A DNA stretch of 64,000 bases from Heptranchias perlo (lineage: Eukaryota): the NCBI RefSeq assembly GCF_035084215.1, contig NC_090326.1:137020001-137084000 (forward strand), read 5' to 3'. Positions 15,496-61,199 of the stretch are shown one piece after another. The translations under genes were made by a program, and so were the position numbers. Numbering within the stretch: position 1 is the stretch's first letter; every line of letters begins with the position of its first letter. A model generated the notes under the pieces. That model made no database searches and had not been told where the DNA came from. It saw only the letters and a program-made list of their open reading frames with translations.

Positions 15496-16119
15496 AAAAA
15501 TTGGCACAAGCATTAGTGGCACTCAGTGTTGGCAGGGACTGGTATTCTTCTCAGTCCTGGATGCTGATCCTGGACCTGCTGGTAATGTAAAATTCAGTAC
15601 TGTGTGTATTTCTGTTTATTCAATCTGTAACAAACTTTTACATTGTTGATGATCCTTTCTTTTCCCATCAATTTTCACCCCTCCCCTTTTGAAGTTGTTG
15701 GTTTCTTAGCGGACAGAGGTTCATTGGTGTCAATCACCATCTGGTATGTGCCCATTACTCACGAATGAACCTTGATGGTGAGTACTGACAAGCCATTCCA
15801 TTGGGCAAGCAGTATCACAGCCAAGCCTGTTCCTGTTTGTACACAATGGCCACAAATATGCACTTCTAGCATTGCTACATAGCATCAGTGACCAAGAACC
15901 ATTCTAGTCTCTGCTATCACAACAAGAGCTACTCAGTTACTCATATACCACTTAGATCAGCTGAGTGCCATATGGCTTTGACAGGCAACATGGTGGATCT
16001 CAAACAGGCTGCAAGTGAGAGGGAAACAACAGATATCTCCCAACAGGACAAAGAGAATGAGCAATTATATGCAAGGAGTCTTACAACACCAGGTTATAGT
16101 CCAACAGCTTTATTTGAAA

Positions 16120-16156
16120 TCACAAGCTTTCGGAGCTTTCCTCCTTCGTCAGGTGA
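16120..16156 (-). ncRNA. Minimal hammerhead ribozyme motif in the left PLE terminus
   Basis: Minus strand reads TCAC-CTGACGA-A-GGAG(GAAAG)CTCC-GAAA-GC-TT-GTGA. Confidence 0.8.
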
Positions 16157-16449
16157 GTGTAGGAGGATTCCATAAAGGTACAGCATATATAGTCAGAGAA
16201 CAATGCCTGGTGATTACAGATAATCTTTCCAACTGCCCGTTATCTCACCTCGGCAGAGATATAATCAAAGTAATCAAAGGAATGGAATGGCGTTCAGACA
16301 GAGAAACATTACATACAAGACTACTGAATACACAATCGGTCAGAACACAAAGACAGAGAGAGAGATAGAGAGAGACCCAAAAGACAGAGAAAGAGAGAGA
16401 ATGACCAGTTGTATTAAAAACAGTTAACTTTTTATCGCTGGTGGGGTTA

Positions 16450-17999
16450 CATGTAGCGTGACATGAACCCAAGATCCCGGTTGAGGCCATCCTCATGGGT
16501 GCGGAACTTGGCTATCAATTTCTGCTCGACGATTTTGCGTTGTCGTGTGTCTCGAAGGCCGCCTTGGAGAACGCTTACCCGAAGATCGGAGGCTGAATGT
16601 CCTTTGACTGCTGAAGTGTTCCCCGACTGGGAGGGAACCCTCCTGTCTGGCGATTGTTGCGCGGTGTCCGTTCATCCGTTGTCGCAGTGTCTGCATGGTC
16701 TTGCCGATGTACCATGCTCTGGGGCATCCTTTCCTGCAACGTATGAGGTAGACAACGTTGGCCGAATCACAGGAGTATGAACCATGCACCTGGTGGGTGG
16801 TGTCCTCTCGTGTGATGGTGGTATCTGTGTCGATGATCTGGCATGTCTTGCAGAGGTTGCCGTGGCAGGGTTGTGTGGTGTCGTGGACGCTGTTCTCCTG
16901 AAAGCTAGGTAATTTGCTGCGATCGATGGTCTGTTTGAGGTTGGGTGGCTGTTTGAAGGCGAGTAGTGGAGACGTGGGGATGGCCTTAGCGAGGTGTTCG
17001 TCGTCATCGATGACATGTTGAAGGCTGCGAAGAACATGGCGTAGTTTCTCCGCTCTGGGGAAGTACTGGACGATGAAGGGTACTCTGTTGGTTGTGTCCC
17101 GTGTTTGTCTTCTGAGGAGGTCTATGCGATTTTTCGCTGTGGCCCGTCGGAACTGTCGATCGACGAGTCGAGCGTCATATCCCGTTCTTACGAGGGTGTC
17201 TTTCAGCGTCTGTAGGTGTCCGTCGCGTTCCTCCTCGTCTGAGCAGATCCTGTGTATTCGCAGGGCCTGTCAATAGGGGATGGCCTCTTTGACGTGGTTA
17301 GGGTGGAAGCTGGAAAAGTGGAGCATCGTGAGGTTGTCCGTGGGCTTGCGGTAAAGTGAGGTGCTGAGGTGCCTGTCTTTGATGGAGATTCGTGTGTCCA
17401 AGAATGAAACCGATTCTGAGGAGTAGTCCATGGTGAGTTTGATGGTGGGATGGAACTTGTTGATGTTAACGTGTAGTCTCTTCAGTGATTCTTCGCCGTG
17501 GGTCCATAGGAAGAAAATGTCGTCGATGTATCTGGTGTATAACGTTGGTTGGAGGTCCTGTGCAGTGAAGAAGTCGTGCTCGAACTTGTGCATGAAAATG
17601 GTGGCGTAGTGGGGTGCGAATTTGGTCCCCATGGCTGTTCCGTGTGTTTGGGTAAAGAACTGGTTATCGAAGGTGAAGACATTGTGATCCAGGATGAAGC
17701 GGATGAGTTGTAGGATGGCGTCTGGAGATTGGCTGTTGTTGGTGTTGAGTACTGAGACTGTTGCAGCGATGCTGTCATCGTGGGGGATACTGGTGTCAAG
17801 TGCCGAGACGTCCATCGTGGTGAGAAGTGTTCCTGGTTCAACTGGTCCGTGGGTGCTGAGTTTTTGTAGGAAGTCTGTAGTGTCGCGACAGAAGCTGGGG
17901 GTTCCCTATACGATGGGTTTCAGGATGCCCTCCACGTATCCAGACAGGTTCTCACACAGAGTTCCGTTGCCTGATACGATAGGACGTCCGGGTGTGTTG
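16450..17999 (-). pseudogene. PLE reverse transcriptase plus GIY-YIG endonuclease, 5'-truncated and disrupted
   Basis: RT motifs TMDVSALDTSIPH, GTAMGTKFAP, YTRYIDDIFF, FLDTRI. GIY-YIG region SCDSANVVYLIRCRKGCPRAWYIGKT. Stop at about 17270 and a frameshift in the C-terminus. Confidence 0.92.
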
Positions 18000-19388
18000 G
18001 ACACACGGACCAGTTGAACCAGGAACACTTCTCACCACGATGGACGTCTCAGCACTCGACACCAGTATCCCCCATGATGACGGCATCGCTGTAACAGCCT
18101 CAGTACTCAACACCAACAACAGCCAACCTCCAGACGCCATCCTACAACTCATCCGCTTCATCCTGGATCACAATGTCTTCACCTTCGATAACCAGTTCTT
18201 TACCCAAACACACGGAACAGCCATGGGGACCAAATTTGCACCCCAATACGCCAACATTTTCATGCACAAGTTTGAGCACGACTTCTTCACTGCACAGGAC
18301 CTCCAACCAACGCTATACACCAGATACATCGACGACATTTTCTTCCTATGGACCCACGGCGAAGAATCACTGAAGAGACTACACGATAACATCAACAAGT
18401 TCCATCCCACCATCAAACTCACCATGGACTACTCCTCAGAATCGGTTTCATTCTTGGATACATGAATCTCCATCAAAGACGGACACCTCAGCACCTCACT
18501 CTACCGCAAGCCCACGGACAACCTCACGATGCTCCACTTTTCCAGCTTCCACCCTAACCACGTCAAAGAGGCCATCCCCTATGGACAAGCCCTGCGAATA
18601 CACAGGATCTGCTCAGACGAGGAGGAACACGATGGACACCTACAGACGCTGAAAGACGCCCTCGTAAGAACGGGATATGACGCTCGACTCGTCGATCGAC
18701 AGTTCCGACGGGCCACAGCGAAAAATCGCATAGACCTCCTCAGAAGACAAACACGGGACACAACCAACAGAGTACCCTTCGTCGTCCAGTACTTCCCCGG
18801 AGCGGAGAAACTAGGCCATGTTCTTCGCAGCCTTCAACATGTCATCGATGACGACGAACACCTCACTAAGGCCATCCCCACGCCTCCACTACTCGCCTTC
18901 AAACAGCCACCCAACCTCAAACAGACCATCGTTCGCAGCAAATTACCCAGCTTTCAGGATAACAGCGACCACGAACCACACAACCCTGCCACGGCAACCT
19001 CTGCAAGACATGCCAGATCATCGACACAGACACCACCATCACACGAGAGGACACCACCCACCAGGTACATGGTTCATACTCCTGCGACTCGGCCAACGTT
19101 GTCTACTTCATACGTTGCAGGAAAGGACCAGGCAAGACCATGCAGACACTGCGACAATGGATGAACGGACACCGCTCAACAATCGCCAGACAGGAGGGTT
19201 CCCTCCCAGTTGGGGAACACTTCAGCAGTCAAGGACATTCAGCCTCCGATCTTCGGGTAAGCGTTCTCCAAGGCGGCCTTCGAGACACACGACAACGCAA
19301 AATCGTCGAGCAGAAATTGATAGCCAATTTCCGCACCCATGAGGAGGGCCTCAACCGGGATCTTGGGTTCATGTCACGCTACATGTAA
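18000..19388 (+). pseudogene. PLE reverse transcriptase plus GIY-YIG endonuclease, second arm, disrupted
   Basis: ORFs 17992-18465, 18529-19164 and 19140-19388. CGA>TGA stop at 18463 and a deletion removing the WYIG motif near 19128. Confidence 0.92.
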
Positions 19389-19665
19389 CCCCACCAACGA
19401 AAAAAGGTTATCTGTTTTTAATACAACAGGTCATTCTTTCTCTTTCTCTGCCTTTCGGGGGTCTCTCTCTCTGTCTTTGTGTTCTGACAGATTGTGTATT
19501 CAGTAGTCTTGTATGTAATGTTTCTCTGTCTGAACACCATTCCTTTGATTGCTTTGATTATATCTCTGCCGAGGTGAGATAACGGGCAGTTGGAAAGATT
19601 ATCTGTAATCACCAGGTATTGTTCTCTGACTATATATGCTGTACCTTTATGGAATCCTCCTACAC

Positions 19666-19702
19666 TCACCTGACGAAGGAGGAAAACTCCGAAAGCTTGT
19701 GA
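19666..19702 (+). ncRNA. Minimal hammerhead ribozyme motif in the right PLE terminus
   Basis: TCAC-CTGACGA-A-GGAG(GAAAA)CTCC-GAAA-GC-TT-GTGA, followed by AATAAA. Confidence 0.8.
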
Positions 19703-19972
19703 TTTCAAATAAAGCTGTTGGACTATGACCTGGTGTTGTAAGACTCCTTACATTTGTCCTCCCCAGTCCATCACCGGCATCTCCACATCACAGCAATTAT
19801 ATGGGAGAGTACCTTATATTGACAATGCTTCCCCACAATTATATGGGGGAGCACTTTATATTGAAAATACTGTCCCTCCAGTTATGTTTGTCTTTTCAAA
19901 AAAGTATATATTTCAAACACAAACTCAGTCTTTTAAGTAAACTGTTCACTATTGTGGCAAAAGTAGGTACGG

Positions 19973-20047: not shown

Positions 20048-21488
20048 CGCGACGGCAGCTGGCGAATTTAAATTCAATTAATTCAATAAAATCTGGAATT
20101 AAAATACTAGTATCACTAATGGTGGCCATGAAACTATCGGATTGTCGTAAAAACCCATCTGGTTCACTAATGTCCTTTAGGGAAGGAAACCTGCCGTCCT
20201 TACCAGGTCTGGCCGAAATGTGACTCCAGACCCACAGCATTGTGCTTGATTCTTAATTGTCCTCTGAAATGGCCTAGCAAGCCACTCAGTTGTACAATCT
20301 CGCTACAAAAAGTCACAATAAGAATAAAACCGGATGGACCACCCGGCATCGGACCACTCGGCACCGGACACGACAAAGGCAAACCAAGCCCAGTCGACCC
20401 TGCAAAGTCCTCCTCACTAACATCTGGGGACTTGTGCCAAAATTGGGACAGCTGTCCCACAGACTAGTCAAGCAACAGCCTGACATAGCCATACTCACAG
20501 AATCATACCTTTCAGCCAATGTCCCAGACTCTTCCATCACCATCCCTGAGGTGCAGGTACAGTGATATACAGTCAGGAGGGAGTGGCCCTGGGAGTCCTC
20601 AACATTGACTCTGGACCCCATAAAATCTCATGGCATCAGGTCAAACATGGGCAAAGAAACCTCCTGCTGATTACCACCTACCGCCCTCCCTCGGCTGATG
20701 AATCAGTCCTCCTCCATGTTGAACACCACTTGGAGGAAGCACTGAGGGTGGCAAGGGCACAGAATGTACTCTGGGTGGGGGACTTCAATGTCCACCACCA
20801 AGAGTGGCTCAGTAGCACCGCTACTGCCTGAGCTGGCCGAGTCCTAAAGGACACAGCTGCTAGACTGGGCCTGAGCGGGTGGTGAGTGAACCAACATGAG
20901 GGAAAAACTTACTTGATCTCGTCCTCACCGATCTACCTGTCACAAATGCATCTGTCCATGACAGTATTGGTAGGAGTGACCACCGCACAGTCCTCGTGGA
21001 GATATAGTCCCGTCTTCGCACTGAGGACACCATCCAACGTGTTGTGTGGCACTACCACCGTGCTAAATGGGATAGATTCAGAACAGATCTAGCAGCTCAA
21101 AACTGGGCATCCATGAGGTGCTGTGGGCCATCAGCAGCAGCAGAATTGTATTCCAGCACAATCTGTAACCTCACGGCCCGGCATATTCCTCACTCTACCA
21201 TTACCAACAAGCCAGGGGATCAACCCTGGTTCAAGGAGGAGTGTAAAAGAGCATGCCAGGAGCAGCACCAGGCGTACCGAAAAATGAGGTGCCAACCTGG
21301 TGAAGCTACAACTCAGGACTACATGCATGCTAAACAGCGGAAGCAACATGCTATAGACAGAGCTAAGCGATTCTACAACCAACGGATCAGAGCAAAGCTC
21401 TGCAGTCCTGCCACATCCGGTCGTGAATGGTGGTGGACAATTAATCAACTAACGGGAGGAGAAGGCTCTGCAAACATCCCCATCCTCA

Positions 21489-23174
21489 ATGATGGCGGAG
21501 TCCAGCACGAGTGCAAAAGACAAGGCTAAAGCGTTTGCAAACATCTTCAGCCAGAAGTGCCGAGTGGATGATACATCTTGGCCTCCTCCCGACATCCCCA
21601 CCATCACAGAAGCCAGTCTTCAGCCAATTCGATTCACACCACTTGATATCAGGAAACGGCTGAGTGCACTGGATACAGCAAAAGCTATGGGCCCCGACAA
21701 CATCCCGGCTGTAATGCTGAAGACTTGTGCTCCAGAACTAGCTGCGCCTCTAGCCAAGCTGTTCCAGTACAGCTACAACACTGGCATCTACCCGACAATG
21801 TGGAAAATTGCCCAGGTATGTCCTGTTCACAAAAAGCAGGACAAATCCAATCCGGCCAATTACCGCCCCATCAGTCTACTCTCTATCATCAGCAAAGTGA
21901 TGGAAGGTGTCGTCGACAGTGCTATCAAGCGGCGCTTACTCACCAATAACCTGCTCACTGATGCTCAGTTTGGGTTCCGCCAGGACCACTCGGCTCCAGA
22001 CCTCATTACAGCCTTGGTCCAAACATGGACAAAAGAGCTGAATTCCAGAGGTGAGGTGAGAGTGACTGCCCTTGACATCAAGGCATTTGGCAGAGTGTGG
22101 CACCAAGGAGCCCTAGTAAAATTGAAGTCAATGGGAATCAGGGGGAAAACTCTCCAGTGGCTGGAGTCATACCTAGCACAAAGGAAGATGGTAGTGGTTG
22201 TTGGAGGCCAATCATCTCAGCCCCAGGTCATTGCTGCAGGAGTTCCTCAAGGCAGTGTCCTTGGCCCAACCATCTTCAGCTGCTTCATCAATGACCTTCC
22301 CTCCATCATAAGGTCAGAAATGGGGATGTTCGCAGATGATTGCACAGTGTTCAGTTCCATTCGCAACCCCTCAGACAATGAAGCAGTCCAAGCCCGCATG
22401 CAGCAAGACTTGGACAACATCCAGGCTTGGGCTCATAAGTGGCAAGTAACATTCGCACCAGACAAGTGCCAGGCAATGACCATCTCCAACAAGAGAGAGT
22501 CGAACCACTTCCCCTTGACATTCAACGGCATTACCATCGCCGAATCCTCCACCATCAACATCCTGGGGGTCACCATTGACCAGAAACTTAATTGGACCAG
22601 CCATATAAATACTATGGCCACAAGAGCAGGTCAGAGGCTGGGTATTCTGCGGCGAGTGACTCACCTCCCGACTCCCCAAAGCCTTTCCACCATCTACAAG
22701 GCACAAGTCAGGAGTGTGATGGAATGCTCTCCACTTGCCTGGATGAGTGCAGCTCCAACAACATTCAAGAAGCTCGACACAATCCAGGACAAACCAGCCC
22801 GCTTGATTGGCACCCCATCCACCACCCTAAACATTCACTACTCCCTTCACCACCGGCGCACAGTGGCTGCAGTGTGTACCATCCACAGGATGCACAGCGG
22901 CAACTCGCCAAGGCTTCTTCGACAGCACCTCCCAAATCCGCAACCTCTACCACCTAGAAGGACAAGAGCAGCAGGTACATGGGAACAACACCACCTGCAC
23001 GTTCCCCTCCAAGTCACACACCATCCCGACTTGGAAATATATCGCCATTCCTTCATCGTCGCTGGGTCAAAATCCTGGAACTCCCTTCCTAACAGTACTG
23101 TGGGAGAACCTTCACCACACGAACTGCAGCGGTTCAAGAAGGCGGCTCATCACCACCTTCTCAAGGGCAATTAG
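21489..23174 (+). CDS. Non-LTR retrotransposon reverse transcriptase ORF (561 aa; upstream EN part frameshifted)
   Basis: KAMGPDNIP, NYRPISLLS, QFGFR, ALDIKAF, GVPQGSVLGP, FADD, LGVTID. Confidence 0.9.
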   Translation: MMAESSTSAKDKAKAFANIFSQKCRVDDTSWPPPDIPTITEASLQPIRFTPLDIRKRLSALDTAKAMGPDNIPAVMLKTCAPELAAPLAKLFQYSYNTGIYPTMWKIAQVCPVHKKQDKSNPANYRPISLLSIISKVMEGVVDSAIKRRLLTNNLLTDAQFGFRQDHSAPDLITALVQTWTKELNSRGEVRVTALDIKAFGRVWHQGALVKLKSMGIRGKTLQWLESYLAQRKMVVVVGGQSSQPQVIAAGVPQGSVLGPTIFSCFINDLPSIIRSEMGMFADDCTVFSSIRNPSDNEAVQARMQQDLDNIQAWAHKWQVTFAPDKCQAMTISNKRESNHFPLTFNGITIAESSTINILGVTIDQKLNWTSHINTMATRAGQRLGILRRVTHLPTPQSLSTIYKAQVRSVMECSPLAWMSAAPTTFKKLDTIQDKPARLIGTPSTTLNIHYSLHHRRTVAAVCTIHRMHSGNSPRLLRQHLPNPQPLPPRRTRAAGTWEQHHLHVPLQVTHHPDLEIYRHSFIVAGSKSWNSLPNSTVGEPSPHELQRFKKAAHHHLLKGN

Positions 23175-24501
23175 GGATGGGCAATAAATGCTGGCCTCGC
23201 CAGCGACGCCCACATCCCATGAACGAATAAAAAAAATCTACCTCTTAAATTCCCACAAAATTATCCTTACAATGAGAATATTTCACGGTGAAGTACATTA
23301 GTTTGTAAAAGTAAAATGGTTATATATAGTATCTCAGAGAAGATGACCTCTAATCTGAGCCCAATATTAGAAATCCAGTCCTTTCTCGATAACAAGCCTT
23401 GAAGCCTTTTTTCTCAATGTCAGGTCTTAGTAAGGCTTCTAGGAGTAAGTTGGCACGTATAACGATTCCTCAATTGAACTGTGCCTACCAATGCTTTTAA
23501 CCTCTCCCAAAAACAACAAAAGGCAAAAACCATTGTCTTTCTCTCTCTAGGTAAGATGACAACTTCTTGAATAAACTATACTGTTGAAACTATCTCTAAA
23601 ATGTTCAGCAAAATTTTGGCTTGAATATATTTAAACTATATTGACATTGGAGCTGCCAAGTTTGTGGTAATAAACACCTATATACAGGATAAATGGGGCA
23701 GGTAAAGTTATTTATGAACATGTTTGCACTGAGTAAAATCACCAGCTGTGATGCACATATAGCTATATATTATGCAGCATGATTTTATGGTGTCATTTTT
23801 CTTTTTTAAAGTTAAACAAAACAAAGCACAATATTTCAGAAATCAGTAATGAGATTATATAACGTGATACCGGTTTGATGCTTTCAGCGTGGCGTTGTGG
23901 ATGTTCAGTATACTAGCTACTAACTCATAAGCAGATAATGGGAAGAGTGATGAATTGTGCAAATTAGTAATTGTGACTGTGTTTAAAAAAAATTAAGATT
24001 CTGTTCACAAAAGTGTATAAAATTATATTGTTACACCAATTACACAACTGCTTATTATGTTTGCAGAAATGGCATTTAACAGATGAAACATGCTGTTCTT
24101 TACAGGGCCTGAATTTGCTGGAACGGGATGTTTGTTGAGAACGCCATTAATCGGAGATTTTAGGTCTCTATTTAATTGCACTATATTTGCGCAACAAATT
24201 GCTGGAAGAGTCTCAGGGTTTCCATTCAGAACACACAATTCTACTATAAGTATTAGAAAACCAAAAGTTGTATGTCTCTTTAATTGTTTTTTAAAGAATG
24301 GCTTGAGATGCAAAGGAGTTGACCGTCAGTGGGGGAATGTTAGGTGCTTTCAAGATGTGATCTTTTGTTTGCTAAAGACAGAATCCAAAAGTGAGTCATA
24401 AAGGTCTGTTGCTTTGGGAGACACCCCTTTCAGAGTGGCCAGTTGATGAATTTGACAGCTTCAGTCTCTGGAGAAAATATTCCAATGCCTGAAAAGAAGC
24501 C

Positions 24502-24784
24502 ATGATGTGGAGATGCCGGTGATGGACTGGGGTTGACAATTGTAAACAATTTTACAACACCAAGTTATAGTCCAGCAATTTTATTTTAAATTCACAAGCT
24601 TTCGGAGGCTACCTCCTTCCTCAGGTGAATGATGTGGGGGAATGTTAGGTGCTTTCAAGATGTGATCTTTCAAGATGTGATCTCCACATCGTTCACCTGA
24701 GGAAGGAGGTAGCCTCCGAAAGCTTGTGAATTTAAAATAAAATTGCTGGACTATAACTTGGTGTTGTAAAATTGTTTACAATTG
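24502..24784. mobile_element. PLE terminal hairpin with two hammerhead motifs and captured host DNA in the loop
   Basis: Tail 24503-24536, arms 24537-24637 and 24684-24784, TSD TGAAAAGAAGCC at 24490-24501 and 24783-24794. Hammerhead with CTGAGGA core at 24692-24730. Confidence 0.9.
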
Positions 24785-25189
24785 AAAAGAAGCCGGTCAG
24801 GTTGACACCTCTATCTCATACAAAGCAACCCATCAACCCACCGTTTCCTTGTTTCCCCCCTCAAGGAACGTTGGCTCATAACACACGGGAGCGTGCACAT
24901 AGTGGTGGAGGAATCCCCTTTTTGAAGGAGTTGATGCAGCATGAAGTTTACACCTTTTTTGTTATCATCTGCTTTTACACTGATGGTGTTTGTTGACTGT
25001 TGGTTATTGCACTGAATAAAAGTTCAATTGTTTATTGTTTCAATTCTCCCTGTCCTCCTTTGTGAGATCATTCCACAGAGAAATTGTTCTGGATTTCCTG
25101 GTCCACCTCCATTCCACTGAAGGAACTTCGGGGGGGGGGGGGGGGGGGGAGGGGAGGGGAGGAATATCATTGTCCAAACACCTGAGCCA

Positions 25190-25330: not shown

Positions 25331-25339
25331 TAATGTCAA

Positions 25340-25504
25340 GATGTGGAGATGCCGGTGATGGACTGGGGTGGACAAATGTAAGGAATCTTACAACACCAGG
25401 TTATAGTCCAACAAATTTATTTTAAAATCACAAGCTTTCGGAGATTATCCCCTTCGTCAGGTCACCTGACGAAGAGGATAATCTCCGAAAGCTTGTGATT
25501 TTAA
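25340..25504. mobile_element. PLE terminus with a short fold-back of the hammerhead region
   Basis: Tail GATGTGGAGATGCCGGTGATGGACTGGGG. Inverted arms 25422-25462 and 25464-25504 around CTGACGA..GAAAGCTTGTGA. No clear TSD. Confidence 0.85.
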
Positions 25505-42480: not shown

Positions 42481-42937
42481 TTTCAGCCGCCCGCAATTTC
42501 AGGCCCCCCCCCCACTCATGATTTCAAGCACCCCTCCATGATTTCAGGCCACCCCAAAGATTGAGCGGTTTCTCAGTCGCTATGGATGCTGGATAAAATG
42601 CCGTTTCTTTCACCCATTGCCGCCTCGCGCTTGCTTTAAGTAGTAAATGGACTTGGTGCATTGAAGGTGCTCCATAGTTCGTAATTTGAGAGTGTCCTTG
42701 GTTTCAAGGTTCAGCTTGTATCTATTACAACGTAAGTTATATGGGACTGTCAGTAAGTGTCTGTTTTTTGCAGGTGATCGTTTGTACAGGTTTCACTATA
42801 CCTAGCATTCCATTTAGCAGAATGTAAGCAACTTCATCCACAACCAAGGTTACTCTCAGTTCTAAATAAGTTAATTTAATTCTTTAAATATTGTGTTGCA
42901 AAGAAAAGTAAGATACAAAGACAACTATTACTGAGGC

Positions 42938-43153
42938 AGAAAACGCTGGAAACACTCAGCAGGTCAGGCAGCATCTGTGAAGAGATAAAGGAGTTAACGT
43001 TTCAGGTCGATGACCTTTGAGTTCTGATGAAAGGTCATCGGCCTGAAATGTTAACTCTTTTTCTCCTTCCACAGATGCTGCCTGACCTGCTACGTATTTC
43101 CAGCATTTCCTGATTTACTTTCAGAATTCTAGCATCCGTAGTATTTTGCTTTT
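42938..43153. mobile_element. Second-family PLE terminal hairpin with a hammerhead motif (43019-43057)
   Basis: Imperfect arms 42938-43018 and 43030-43112, plus a tail. GAGTT-CTGATGA-A-AGGTC(ATC)GGCCT-GAAA-TG-TT-AACTC. Degenerate flanking duplication tattactgag/tatcactaag. Confidence 0.75.
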
Positions 43154-59070: not shown

Positions 59071-60580
59071 TTACACTTTAATAATTTTTTACGCAGTAAA
59101 GCATAAAAGGTCTGGTGGTGTTATTATGAACCCTTTCGAAAACAAAGAGGATCAAATGAAAGCATAGCTGAAATAAAGTTTGTTTCCTGGGAATGCTACC
59201 AATTTATCTACCTAACTGGACAAGTGAAAACACTCTGTCTGGAACATGAGGGCTGAAGTTAACAAGAGTAATCCAAACACTAAAGCAAAAATATGTATAG
59301 TGAAAAAAGTAAAGAAACCCCATAACTATAACAATTGTTTGGAACCGTTAAATTCCAATGGAAAGCATCAGGTTCTTGCTTCAAAGCATTGGTTATAGAT
59401 CGCTTCAAATTGTAGTGGCTTAAATCATTTTTAGCATGTTATATCTAATTTTTAAAAAATGTAATCTTCTTTGAAAGTCCCTCAGCAAAATGGTACTGAA
59501 CAATTCTTTCTCTAGTATGGATAATTTTGAAGTATCAAAATGTTTTCAATATCTCTGAAGAGGTGCAGACATCTTGGCTTTGATGGGTGACCTTCCACAC
59601 TTTTCACCTTGGAAACAACGAGTCTTCAAAGGGCTTCATAAATTAGGCTCTTTTTTGCTTTTGTATTCTGTCAGGCCTGGGGGCCACAGCAATAACCTGA
59701 ACCACATTCTAAATATCACTGAGGCTGATTGCACAGGAAAAGGGTATCGAAAACCAGGAAAAACCTATTGGCTGACACATCTACTAGATCAACAATATCT
59801 TTATCCACAACTGACTGACTGGGCAGCTTTGTGAGCTAAAAATGCAGCTACTCCCTAGCTTCTCTTGCACACCTTATTTCAAACAGTACAGCAACACTGG
59901 CAGAGGACTGGAAGATGGATTTCCAGGCTGTCTTCTCAAGATAATAGCATGGGGAGATTCCACAAAGAGCAAAAGAAACATCACTTTTTGGGTCAGATAG
60001 CTTCAGACCAGCATCAGAGATTTGATAACATAGTCTATTAAAAATATTAGAAAAATAAAGCACTTCATAAACTCCAATAACCATAGTGGAACAATTTTAG
60101 ACTAAAGTTTTGTAACATCATGTTGGCCATCAAAAATAAAAAGGCTTAATAAGTGGTAAAAAGTTTGAAAAATACAAGTAAAAAATGAAGAAAAACAAAA
60201 TAAAGGTATGAAACACAAAATGAAAAGGTTGCAAGAACAATAAAATAAGTAAATTATTACAATTAAAATGTAAAAAGGCTGCACCAGTGTGAGTACATCA
60301 TAAGGCCAGCTAGTGTAGGTGTCATTTGAGTTATTTTTACATAAGTTTGTTGGTACTATAAATCCAGAGTCAGGGTCCAACCTGGATCCAGAGAGTGAGG
60401 TGGAGTGGGACAACCTTCTCAAGGAAGTCTCATTCCGGGTTTACTCTGGAATCTGACTCCAGATTTGTTGTTACTGCAGTGTTTCTGTAGAAATGTTGCT
60501 ACAATATTCTGTGCAAGATTTAAAAAATAATTTTTTAAAAAACCACAGCTCCTCAGTACAGGCCTGCATTCTTCCATTAC

Positions 60581-60709
60581 TGTAAGGAATCTTACAACAC
60601 CAGGTTATAGTCCAACAGTTTTATTCAAATAAAACTGTTGGACTATAACCTGGTGTTGTAAGATTCCTTACATTTGTACACCCCAATCCATCACCGGCAT
60701 CTCCACATC
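60581..60709. mobile_element. Minimal PLE hairpin lacking the hammerhead region
   Basis: Arms 60581-60625 and 60628-60672, tail 60673-60709, TSD TTCTTCCATTAC at 60569-60580 and 60710-60721. Confidence 0.9.
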
Positions 60710-61199
60710 TTCTTCCATTACAGTAGAGCAAATGTACTGCAGTGACATATGGCAAGAAGCCCCTTGTACAGCATCCAGAACATTTGGTGTGAACAAGACA
60801 AACTGTTTACAGCTACTCCGCTCCCACTCCCATCCCTGAATTCCATCAAGCATTTGCCAAAACATAACAAAAATTCAGTGTAGGCGATATGGTTCACTGA
60901 CAGAAGGGAAAGGGATATTACTTGCACTAAATCACTGTTGTGTAGTGAACTTTTATATATTTATATACACACAAAAGTTACTAAACAATATTACAGATAC
61001 AGCGATACAATAGATGGGCAGGAACAACCGAGTAATAATTCTTTCCATTTAAAAAAAATCAAGGCACACAAAGTATAACACATATTAAAGACAAACAACC
61101 CCCACAATTCCTCTTATTTTTTGAAGATAAAATATCACAATCGAAAATTAGGAAAATGGCAACAAAACAAAGGACGACCAGAAAACAAAATTGTTTGTT

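What the first reader, a model, noticed from the sequence alone, without database searches (positions are those of the whole stretch)
24329..24794. PLE hairpin loop contains a copy of flanking host DNA
Seen: the 37 nt at 24634-24670 (GTGGGGGAATGTTAGGTGCTTTCAAGATGTGATCTTT) exactly repeat host sequence 24329-24365, about 140 bp outside the insertion. A further re-copy of CAAGATGTGATCT follows, and entry is through GTGG microhomology with the arm. Inference: the hairpin centre was joined by iterative templated synthesis on local DNA, during integration or after a cruciform break. This shows this centre was made at this locus rather than inherited.
Basis: partly seen in the sequence, partly recalled or inferred. 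Interest (0 to 1): 0.7.

Follow-up and report, generated by a model that had tools for sequence, protein, structure and literature searches.

The report
Host-DNA patch in Penelope hairpin junction
Where two back-to-back pieces of a jumping gene meet, a short stretch of neighbouring chromosome DNA was copied in, partly twice; this is an unusually readable example of a known kind of DNA-repair scar, and it shows that the join was made on the spot.

Summary
24634-24670 equals flank 24329-24365 (37/37), 24667-24683 re-copies 24347-24363, and all three joints carry 4-nt microhomology. The hairpin is a standard head-to-head Penelope-like insertion: minimal hammerheads, a 33-nt tail on the long arm only, and a 12-nt target-site duplication. 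It is 1 of 6 such hairpins in the window and the only one whose centre copies its flank. So this centre was made here (about 0.95). Most likely two cDNAs, primed from the two target nicks, were joined by host microhomology-mediated synthesis during integration (0.6). Rivals are a later palindrome centre break (0.22), synthesis by the element's own RT (0.1) and an artefact (0.04). Flank-templated junction DNA is published for L1, ZfL2-2 and R2; my searches found no Penelope report. The donor is farther, and the tracts longer, than in canonical Pol theta insertions. A PLE-independent 91-nt local copy at 9417-9507 shows that such long-range copying also happens here outside a PLE. No reads or whole genome were examined.

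The parts
24329..24365 (+). Flank donor of tract 1; unique in the window; begins GTGG, ends CTTT
   Evidence: 37/37 identity with 24634-24670; BLAST of 24250-24500 finds no other copy in the window
24347..24363 (+). Part of the donor copied a second time (tract 2)
   Evidence: 17/17 with 24667-24683
24490..24501 (+). Target-site duplication, left copy (12 nt)
   Evidence: longest common stretch of the two ends
24502..24637 (-). Long arm: one 127-nt pLTR-plus-tail unit (24504-24630) and 7 nt of the next unit; element sense is the minus strand
   Evidence: 124/126 identical to the sister long arm
24504..24536 (-). 33-nt 'tail', present on the long arm only
   Evidence: the short arm starts at unit position 34; a 30-40-nt tail is described in PMC8557442 and PMC11167929
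24591..24629 (-). Minimal hammerhead motif of the long arm
   Evidence: core regex and fold; no Rfam hit at gathering threshold
24634..24637 (+). GTGG microhomology, long arm / donor start
24634..24670 (+). Templated tract 1, direct orientation (33 new nt)
24667..24683 (+). Templated tract 2 (13 new nt), entered through CTTT microhomology
24680..24683 (+). ATCT microhomology, donor 24360-24363 / short arm
   Evidence: the short arm follows the element terminus for 11 nt, down to 24680
24680..24784 (+). Short inverted arm: unit positions 34-127 plus 11 nt of the next unit
   Evidence: 100/101 complementary to the long arm
24692..24730 (+). Minimal hammerhead motif of the short arm
24783..24794 (+). 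Target-site duplication, right copy; its first 2 nt are shared with the short arm (priming microhomology)

Best explanation
A locally templated insertion, made by host microhomology-mediated end joining (Pol theta-type) while a Penelope-like element was integrating. (1) Inferred: the PLE endonuclease made staggered nicks about 12 nt apart, and both 3' ends primed reverse transcription at the element's two internal start sites. This gave a long cDNA with tail and a short cDNA without, both running a few bases past the junction of a tandem 127-nt template. (2) Shown: the two cDNA ends have the same sequence and are not complementary, so joining them needs microhomology; in 3 sister hairpins the centre is a near-perfect palindrome. 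(3) Inferred: here the direct join failed. The short-arm end (AGAT-3', bottom strand) annealed at the first ATCT on the exposed top strand of the left flank (24360-63) and extended 13 nt. It then slipped back through CTTT, extended 33 nt to 24329, and so gained a new end complementary to the long arm's GTGG-3', which closed the joint. (4) Shown: the product is a 46-nt spacer made of flank DNA, inherited since and with no evident function. The spacer should make the palindrome less prone to cruciform extrusion (general principle).
For: Exact tracts and three 4-nt microhomologies; the parse rebuilds the allele base for base. An intact 12-nt TSD and 2-nt microhomology at the short-arm start match L1 twin-primed inserts. 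Short arms start at unit position 31-38 in 4 of 5 hairpins of this family, and the same 4 have 12-15-nt TSDs. The anole PLE cleaves and extends both strands in vitro and has two RT start sites that bracket the tail (PMC11167929). The short arm reaches 11 nt into the next unit and the long arm 7 nt, so the short arm is not a fold-back copy of the long arm as it now stands. The sister, 25k and 60k centres are palindromic to within 0-1 nt, too tight for an intramolecular fold-back loop (my knowledge: 3 nt or more; one search says 4-6). Direct-repeat templated insertions are ascribed to one resected end priming on the other, in several rounds, and a 2-bp AT microhomology often fails into such insertions (PMC7165422); AT is the self-complementary end available here. 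24360 is the only ATCT on the top strand from 23900 to 24640, while GTGG also occurs nearer, at 24435 and 24507; this is weak support, as the chance of no ATCT in 270 nt is 0.27. Flank-derived junction DNA arises during integration of ZfL2-2, L1 and R2.
Against: In PMC7165422 templates lie typically within 30 bp of the break and primary tracts are rarely over 10 bp; here the donor is 125-161 nt from the nick, up to 305 nt from the arm tip, and the tracts are 13 and 33 nt. The inverted 91-nt local copy at 9417-9507 (donor about 400 nt away, inside an old LINE) shows long-range copying outside a PLE, so a later repair event would be enough. The left-primed order rebuilds the allele equally well. 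The base 5' of ATCT is G, which is also what a pre-formed perfect palindrome would carry; this slightly favours a prior join. Divergence gives no timing: loop 0 differences in 50 non-redundant nt (95% upper bound 5.8%), arms 1 in 101. This is a single event, with no reads and no genome-wide survey.
Confidence: 0.6

Rival explanations
1. Later centre break. The element first inserted as a near-perfect palindrome with arms of about 105 nt. It was later cut at its centre (cruciform or replication hairpin) and was repaired by the same templated end joining after resection of at least 305 nt.
For: Spacer-less palindromes are break-prone, and spacers lower that risk (PMC7999016 passages). Three near-perfect PLE palindromes in the window show that the substrate forms. 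The 9417-9507 copy shows long-range templated repair apart from PLEs. The G before ATCT would extend the microhomology to 5 nt under a prior perfect join. The long arm lacks 4 nt that the short arm has.
Against: It needs about twice as much resection, through duplex arm. The sister hairpin (93-nt arms, 100% complementary) persists without such a scar. Almost nothing was lost from either arm: both still pass the unit junction where the sister's arms end.
Confidence: 0.22
2. The element's own telomerase-related RT jumped from RNA onto single-stranded flank DNA, copied it, realigned through 4 nt (like repeat-addition translocation) and copied again, without a host polymerase.
For: PLE RTs are sister to telomerase RTs (PMC8557442). 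Template jumps and host-DNA capture were proposed for rotifer Penelopes (PMC3846280). L1 ORF2p is discussed as able to use DNA templates, and R2 cDNA ends prime on nearby target DNA. The large PLE in the window has a 6-bp fold-back at its own inversion joint (17992-18006).
Against: Every feature is also the textbook signature of host theta-type joining. The non-PLE event at 9417-9507 has 5-nt and 3-4-nt microhomologies and a distant donor. I saw no data on DNA-templated jumping by a PLE RT in the parts of PMC11167929 that I read.
Confidence: 0.1
3. Library or assembly artefact: a polymerase template switch or a mis-join at a strong hairpin created the loop.
For: The arms fold at about -123 kcal/mol as single-stranded DNA; PLE inverted structures trouble assemblies (PMC8557442). 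No reads were examined.
Against: The TSD is intact, the arm geometry matches the sister copy, and the window has no N. Other hairpins, including 1.8-kb arms, are resolved with arm-specific differences. Three clean microhomology joints are not what a graph mis-join produces (inference).
Confidence: 0.04
4. The loop was inherited from a source element, and its match to the flank is coincidence or shared repeat content.
For: The donor shares the 6-mer GATGTG with the element terminus. It could not be tested genome-wide, as no genome is held.
Against: Chance is about 3e-14. The donor region has no other copy in the window. The loop is absent from 5 of 5 other hairpin centres.
Confidence: 0.01

Closest known systems
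Direct-repeat templated insertions (TINS) of polymerase theta-mediated end joining (PMC7165422; passages)
   Same: Inserted DNA is a direct copy of the flank; several rounds of synthesis; short microhomologies at each switch; a new microhomology is created for the final join.
   Different: Donor 125-305 nt away (typically within 30 bp, defined as within 50 bp); tracts of 13 and 33 nt (primary tracts rarely over 10 bp); the break ends are retroelement cDNAs; POLQ dependence untested.
L1 twin-primed 5' inversions and L1 insertions with templated genomic pieces (PMC11702581; passages and part of the Fig. S10 legend)
   Same: TSD preserved; microhomology at the second primer; an internal inversion joint closed by end joining; three insertions reported with sequence templated near the integration site.
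   Different: L1 arms copy adjacent, nearly non-overlapping parts of one RNA; here both arms copy the same unit. In what I saw the authors ascribe the templated pieces to processing of the reciprocal end, not to the internal inversion joint.
5' extra nucleotides of the zebrafish LINE ZfL2-2 (PMC4245944; passages) and R2 'snap-back' junctions (PMC11371274; passages)
   Same: Junction DNA is copied from the flank or from nearby target DNA to make a synapsis during integration.
   Different: There it sits at the element/host 5' joint; here it sits between two element arms, inside an intact TSD.
Head-to-head Penelope insertion unit, e.g. Pen2a_Av, with tail and minimal hammerhead (PMC3846280, PMC8557442, PMC4209133, passages; PMC11167929, parts 1-2 of 4)
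   Same: Inverted shorter pLTR, 30-40-nt tail at one end, TSD, palindromic centre, min-HHR.
   Different: The centre is a flank-derived spacer rather than a palindrome. PMC3846280 reads palindromic centres as self-priming; the unequal arm ends here fit two joined cDNAs better.

Membership tests
PLE-derived head-to-head insertion (truncated or non-autonomous) | pLTR with a minimal hammerhead motif | tested here: met
   CUGANGA-stem II-GAAA core closed by stem I in both arms; no Rfam hit at gathering; cleavage not tested
PLE-derived head-to-head insertion (truncated or non-autonomous) | inverted shorter copy, 30-40-nt tail on one end only | tested here: met
   short arm starts at unit position 34; 33-nt tail
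PLE-derived head-to-head insertion (truncated or non-autonomous) | target-site duplication | tested here: met
   12 nt, 24490-24501 / 24783-24794
PLE-derived head-to-head insertion (truncated or non-autonomous) | terminus homologous to an RT plus C-terminal GIY-YIG element | tested here: met
   85% over 129 nt to the end of the 16069-19790 element, which has RVT_1 above cut-off and a weak GIY-YIG hit (E 4e-4, 21 bits, under the 22.6 cut-off). The focal insertion itself has no ORF.
Neptune clade of PLEs | extra Zn-finger-like motif between RT and EN, and phylogenetic placement | tested here: inconclusive
   a Cys cluster precedes the GIY-YIG in the large element, fitting the description; no tree was built
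Canonical Pol theta templated insertion (TINS) | 5 bp or more copied from the flank as a direct or inverted repeat | tested here: met
   33 and 13 new nt, direct
Canonical Pol theta templated insertion (TINS) | microhomology at the switches, iterative rounds | tested here: met
   GTGG, CTTT, ATCT; two tracts
Canonical Pol theta templated insertion (TINS) | template within 50 bp of the break | tested here: not met
   125-161 nt from the TSD, 270-305 nt from the long-arm tip (definition). Filed as 'works like', not as a canonical member.
Canonical Pol theta templated insertion (TINS) | dependence on POLQ | not testable with these tools
   needs a knockout assay
L1-type twin priming | preserved TSD and microhomology at the second primer | tested here: met
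   12-nt TSD; 2 nt shared at 24783-24784
L1-type twin priming | the two cDNAs copy adjacent, nearly non-overlapping template segments | tested here: not met
   both arms copy the same 101 nt; compatible only with a tandem or circular template, or two RNAs
Palindrome centre-break scar | an earlier allele with an unbroken palindromic centre | not testable with these tools
   no genome held, no population or read data examined

The most novel reading that the evidence does not exclude
The telomerase-related reverse transcriptase of this Penelope-like element itself finishes integration. After two target-primed cDNAs are made on a tandem 127-nt RNA, it jumps onto resected host DNA more than 100 nt away, copies it, realigns through 4 nt and copies again, a DNA-templated echo of telomerase repeat addition. 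The palindromic centres of PLE insertions would then in general be joints between two cDNAs, not self-primed fold-backs.
Probability: 0.1. Interest if true: 0.7.

Novelty: new member of a known kind. Interest (0 to 1): 0.33.

Why it matters
How Penelope-like elements form their inverted ends is still open: the papers I read call these steps undefined or not yet validated. This locus records an intermediate. Two cDNA ends of unequal length had to be bridged, and flank DNA at least 161 nt from the nick was available as template. With the near-perfect palindromic centres of three sister copies, it suggests a test that any long-read assembly rich in these hairpins allows: classify the centres and map their donors. 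As a single event it is a repair scar of a known class, with no function implied.

Tried and rejected
No whole genome is held, so no genome-wide survey was possible. A family motif gave 0 matches in metagenome contigs. The RT protein gave 95 pattern hits there, 0 of them confirmed by tblastn. Rfam at gathering threshold gave 0 matches in the window, so the hammerheads rest on motif and fold only. Pure intramolecular snap-back as the origin of the short arm was rejected: the arm carries 4 more element-derived bases (ATCT) than the long arm could template; chance about 0.005, unless the long arm was trimmed later. Later slippage as the origin of the 15-nt re-copy is disfavoured about 10:1 (2-nt versus 4-nt microhomology), not excluded. 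A donor in the right flank was rejected: best match 10 nt at 25336, partly the element terminus. Dating by divergence has no power. Passages of 10.1101/2024.08.27.596794 and PMC13526784 gave nothing on flank-templated inversion joints. Searches for a printed PLE case. The single hit uses the phrase for RNA-templated products. The library lacks most subscription papers; I saw the listings and the passages named, and no supplements other than parts of PMC11702581's. Earlier-findings look-ups were empty, and 50 gave no PLE case.

Full report
OBSERVATION. The 37 nt at 24634-24670 are identical to 24329-24365, and the match stops on both sides. A second tract follows: 24667-24683 equals 24347-24363 over 17 nt. 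The 46 nt between the two arms therefore consist of 33 + 13 new bases, and the parse rebuilds the allele base for base. Each of the three switches has a 4-nt microhomology: GTGG, CTTT and ATCT. The expected chance count for the 29-nt core is about 3e-14. Of 400 random 46-mers, 393 matched their surroundings for at most 13 nt; the 7 others lie in inverted repeats. The loop's 12-mers occur nowhere else in the 64 kb except the donor.

THE HOST ELEMENT. The insertion runs from 24502 to 24784 between 12-nt target-site duplications. The long arm is one 127-nt unit plus 7 nt of the next unit. The short, inverted arm starts at unit position 34 and runs 11 nt into the next unit. The arms are 100/101 complementary; the one difference is a C-to-T change at a CpG. 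Both arms carry a minimal hammerhead motif of the kind described for PLE pseudo-LTRs (PMC4209133, passages). The arm is 85% identical to the end of a 3.7-kb element at 16069-19790 that encodes an RT and a weak GIY-YIG match below the Pfam cut-off. An inverted shorter copy and a 30-40-nt tail on one end are the standard PLE layout (PMC3846280 and PMC8557442, passages). In vitro, the anole PLE cleaves and extends both target strands and starts RT at two sites that bracket the tail (PMC11167929, parts 1-2 of 4). That the sequence looks like a cartilaginous-fish genome is my recall and comes from no call.

LOCAL SURVEY. The window has six hammerhead hairpins: the focal one, a sister at 8182-8409 (124/126 identical), 25337-25504, 60581-60711, the large element, and an older second family at 42937-43112. 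Among the five of the focal family, four have 12-15-nt TSDs and short arms that start at unit position 31-38; the 25k copy has neither. Testing each centre against 1 kb of flank on both sides and strands gave 37 nt for the focal copy and at most 8 nt for the other five. So 1 of 6 centres is flank-templated. Three centres (sister, 25k, 60k) are palindromic to within 0-1 nt. The large element has a twin-priming-like joint, with 146 nt present on one side only and a 6-bp fold-back with a 3-nt loop at 17992-18006; two later mutations could also explain that fold-back. Both focal arms share two variants that both sister arms lack, so the two arms of a hairpin come from one template variant or were homogenised.

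MECHANISM. Two cDNAs primed from opposite nicks end in the same sequence and cannot simply anneal. Centres with 0-1-nt asymmetry fit two ends pairing through 2-5 self-complementary bases better than a fold-back, which needs a loop (inference). In the focal copy the short arm has 4 more element-derived bases than the long arm (chance about 0.005), so it is not a copy of the long arm as it now stands. A direct-orientation copy of the left flank is what arises when the right-hand 3' end primes on the exposed top strand of the left side (model in PMC7165422, passages). In that order the short-arm end anneals at 24360-63, extends 13 nt, slips back through CTTT, extends 33 nt, and then pairs with the long arm's terminal GTGG. 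Position 24360 is the only ATCT on the top strand from 23900 to the tip, whereas GTGG has two nearer sites; this favours the right-primed order only about 3-4 to 1. The re-copy was probably made on the donor in the same event, because the donor offers 4 nt of microhomology and a finished single-copy loop only 2. Shown: tracts, microhomologies, TSD, arm geometry. Inferred: two nicks, order of synthesis, enzyme, timing.

AGAINST, AND WHAT STAYS OPEN. Canonical Pol theta insertions use templates typically within 30 bp, and their primary tracts are rarely over 10 bp. This event exceeds both, so I call it theta-like and not a canonical member. During integration the arm may still be an RNA-DNA hybrid and unavailable, which would make the flank the nearest usable template (inference). 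But the window holds a second long-range copy with no PLE involved: 9417-9507 is a 90/91 inverted copy of 8925-9015, inserted cleanly (83 nt net, microhomology at both ends) into an old LINE when aligned with a homologous copy at 21730-21890. Repair outside PLE integration can thus reach that far here. This weakens both the distance argument for integration and the case for the element's RT. A later centre break stays possible (0.22): spacer-less palindromes are fragile (PMC7999016, passages), and the G before ATCT would suit a prior perfect join. Against it, both arms still pass the point where the sister's arms end, and the sister palindrome survives intact. Divergence cannot date the loop. 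No reads were examined and no genome is held, so an artefact (0.04), polymorphism and genome-wide uniqueness of the loop are untested. Scans of metagenome contigs for further copies were empty.

COMPARISON WITH WHAT IS KNOWN. Flank-derived junction DNA is published for integration of other retroelements: a large fraction of ZfL2-2 5' extra nucleotides (PMC4245944, passages), three de novo L1-mediated insertions (PMC11702581, passages and part of the Fig. S10 legend) and R2 snap-back on nearby rDNA (PMC11371274, passages). What differs here is the place, the internal joint between two PLE arms inside an intact TSD, and the element class. Searches found no printed PLE case; the library is incomplete, and supplements other than parts of PMC11702581's were not seen. 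Earlier AI notes from other genomes describe the same hairpin class as known; they are leads only.

VERDICT. Real, locally made and mechanistically legible, but one example of a known class of scar: new member of a known kind, interest 0.33. The boldest reading not excluded is that the PLE's telomerase-related RT did the DNA-templated copying and realignment itself (probability 0.1, interest 0.7).

Noticed in passing
window 9417-9507 (donor 8925-9015): A 91-nt inverted copy (90/91) of DNA about 400 nt upstream, inserted cleanly into an old LINE copy with 5-nt and 3-4-nt microhomologies; a second long-range local templated insertion, with no PLE involved.
   Followed up: yes
window 8169-8419: Sister hairpin of the same subfamily: 15-nt TSD, short arm starting at the same unit position 34, palindromic centre with one extra A.
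   Followed up: yes
window 24504-24637, 24680-24690, 8278-8286: In this subfamily the tail end abuts the next hammerhead directly, giving a 127-nt unit, and the arms stop 3-11 nt past that junction. This hints at a non-autonomous tandem or circular RNA template; the related large element has ORF-end sequence there instead.
   Followed up: partly
window 16060-19803: A 3.7-kb head-to-head PLE with 1.8-kb arms (95% identical), 12-nt TSD, broken RT and GIY-YIG frames, a Cys cluster before the endonuclease, 146 nt present on one side only and a 6-bp fold-back at the joint.
   Followed up: partly
window 25337-25504 and 60569-60721: Two more hairpins of the related subfamily, with centres palindromic around one unpaired base; the 25k copy has no TSD and a 42-nt short arm, the 60k copy has a 12-nt TSD and its centre upstream of the hammerhead.
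   Followed up: partly
window 42937-43112 and 12810-12904: An older second hammerhead-bearing family: one 83% hairpin with an 11-nt centre that does not match its flanks, and one solo copy.
   Followed up: partly
window 21453-23174: A 573-codon open frame with a strong RVT_1 match (E 2e-35), a non-PLE LINE-type RT; older relatives at 8844-9700 and about 11100-11540.
   Followed up: no
window 25129-25150: A long G run next to the hairpin region, which could be error-prone in sequencing.
   Followed up: no
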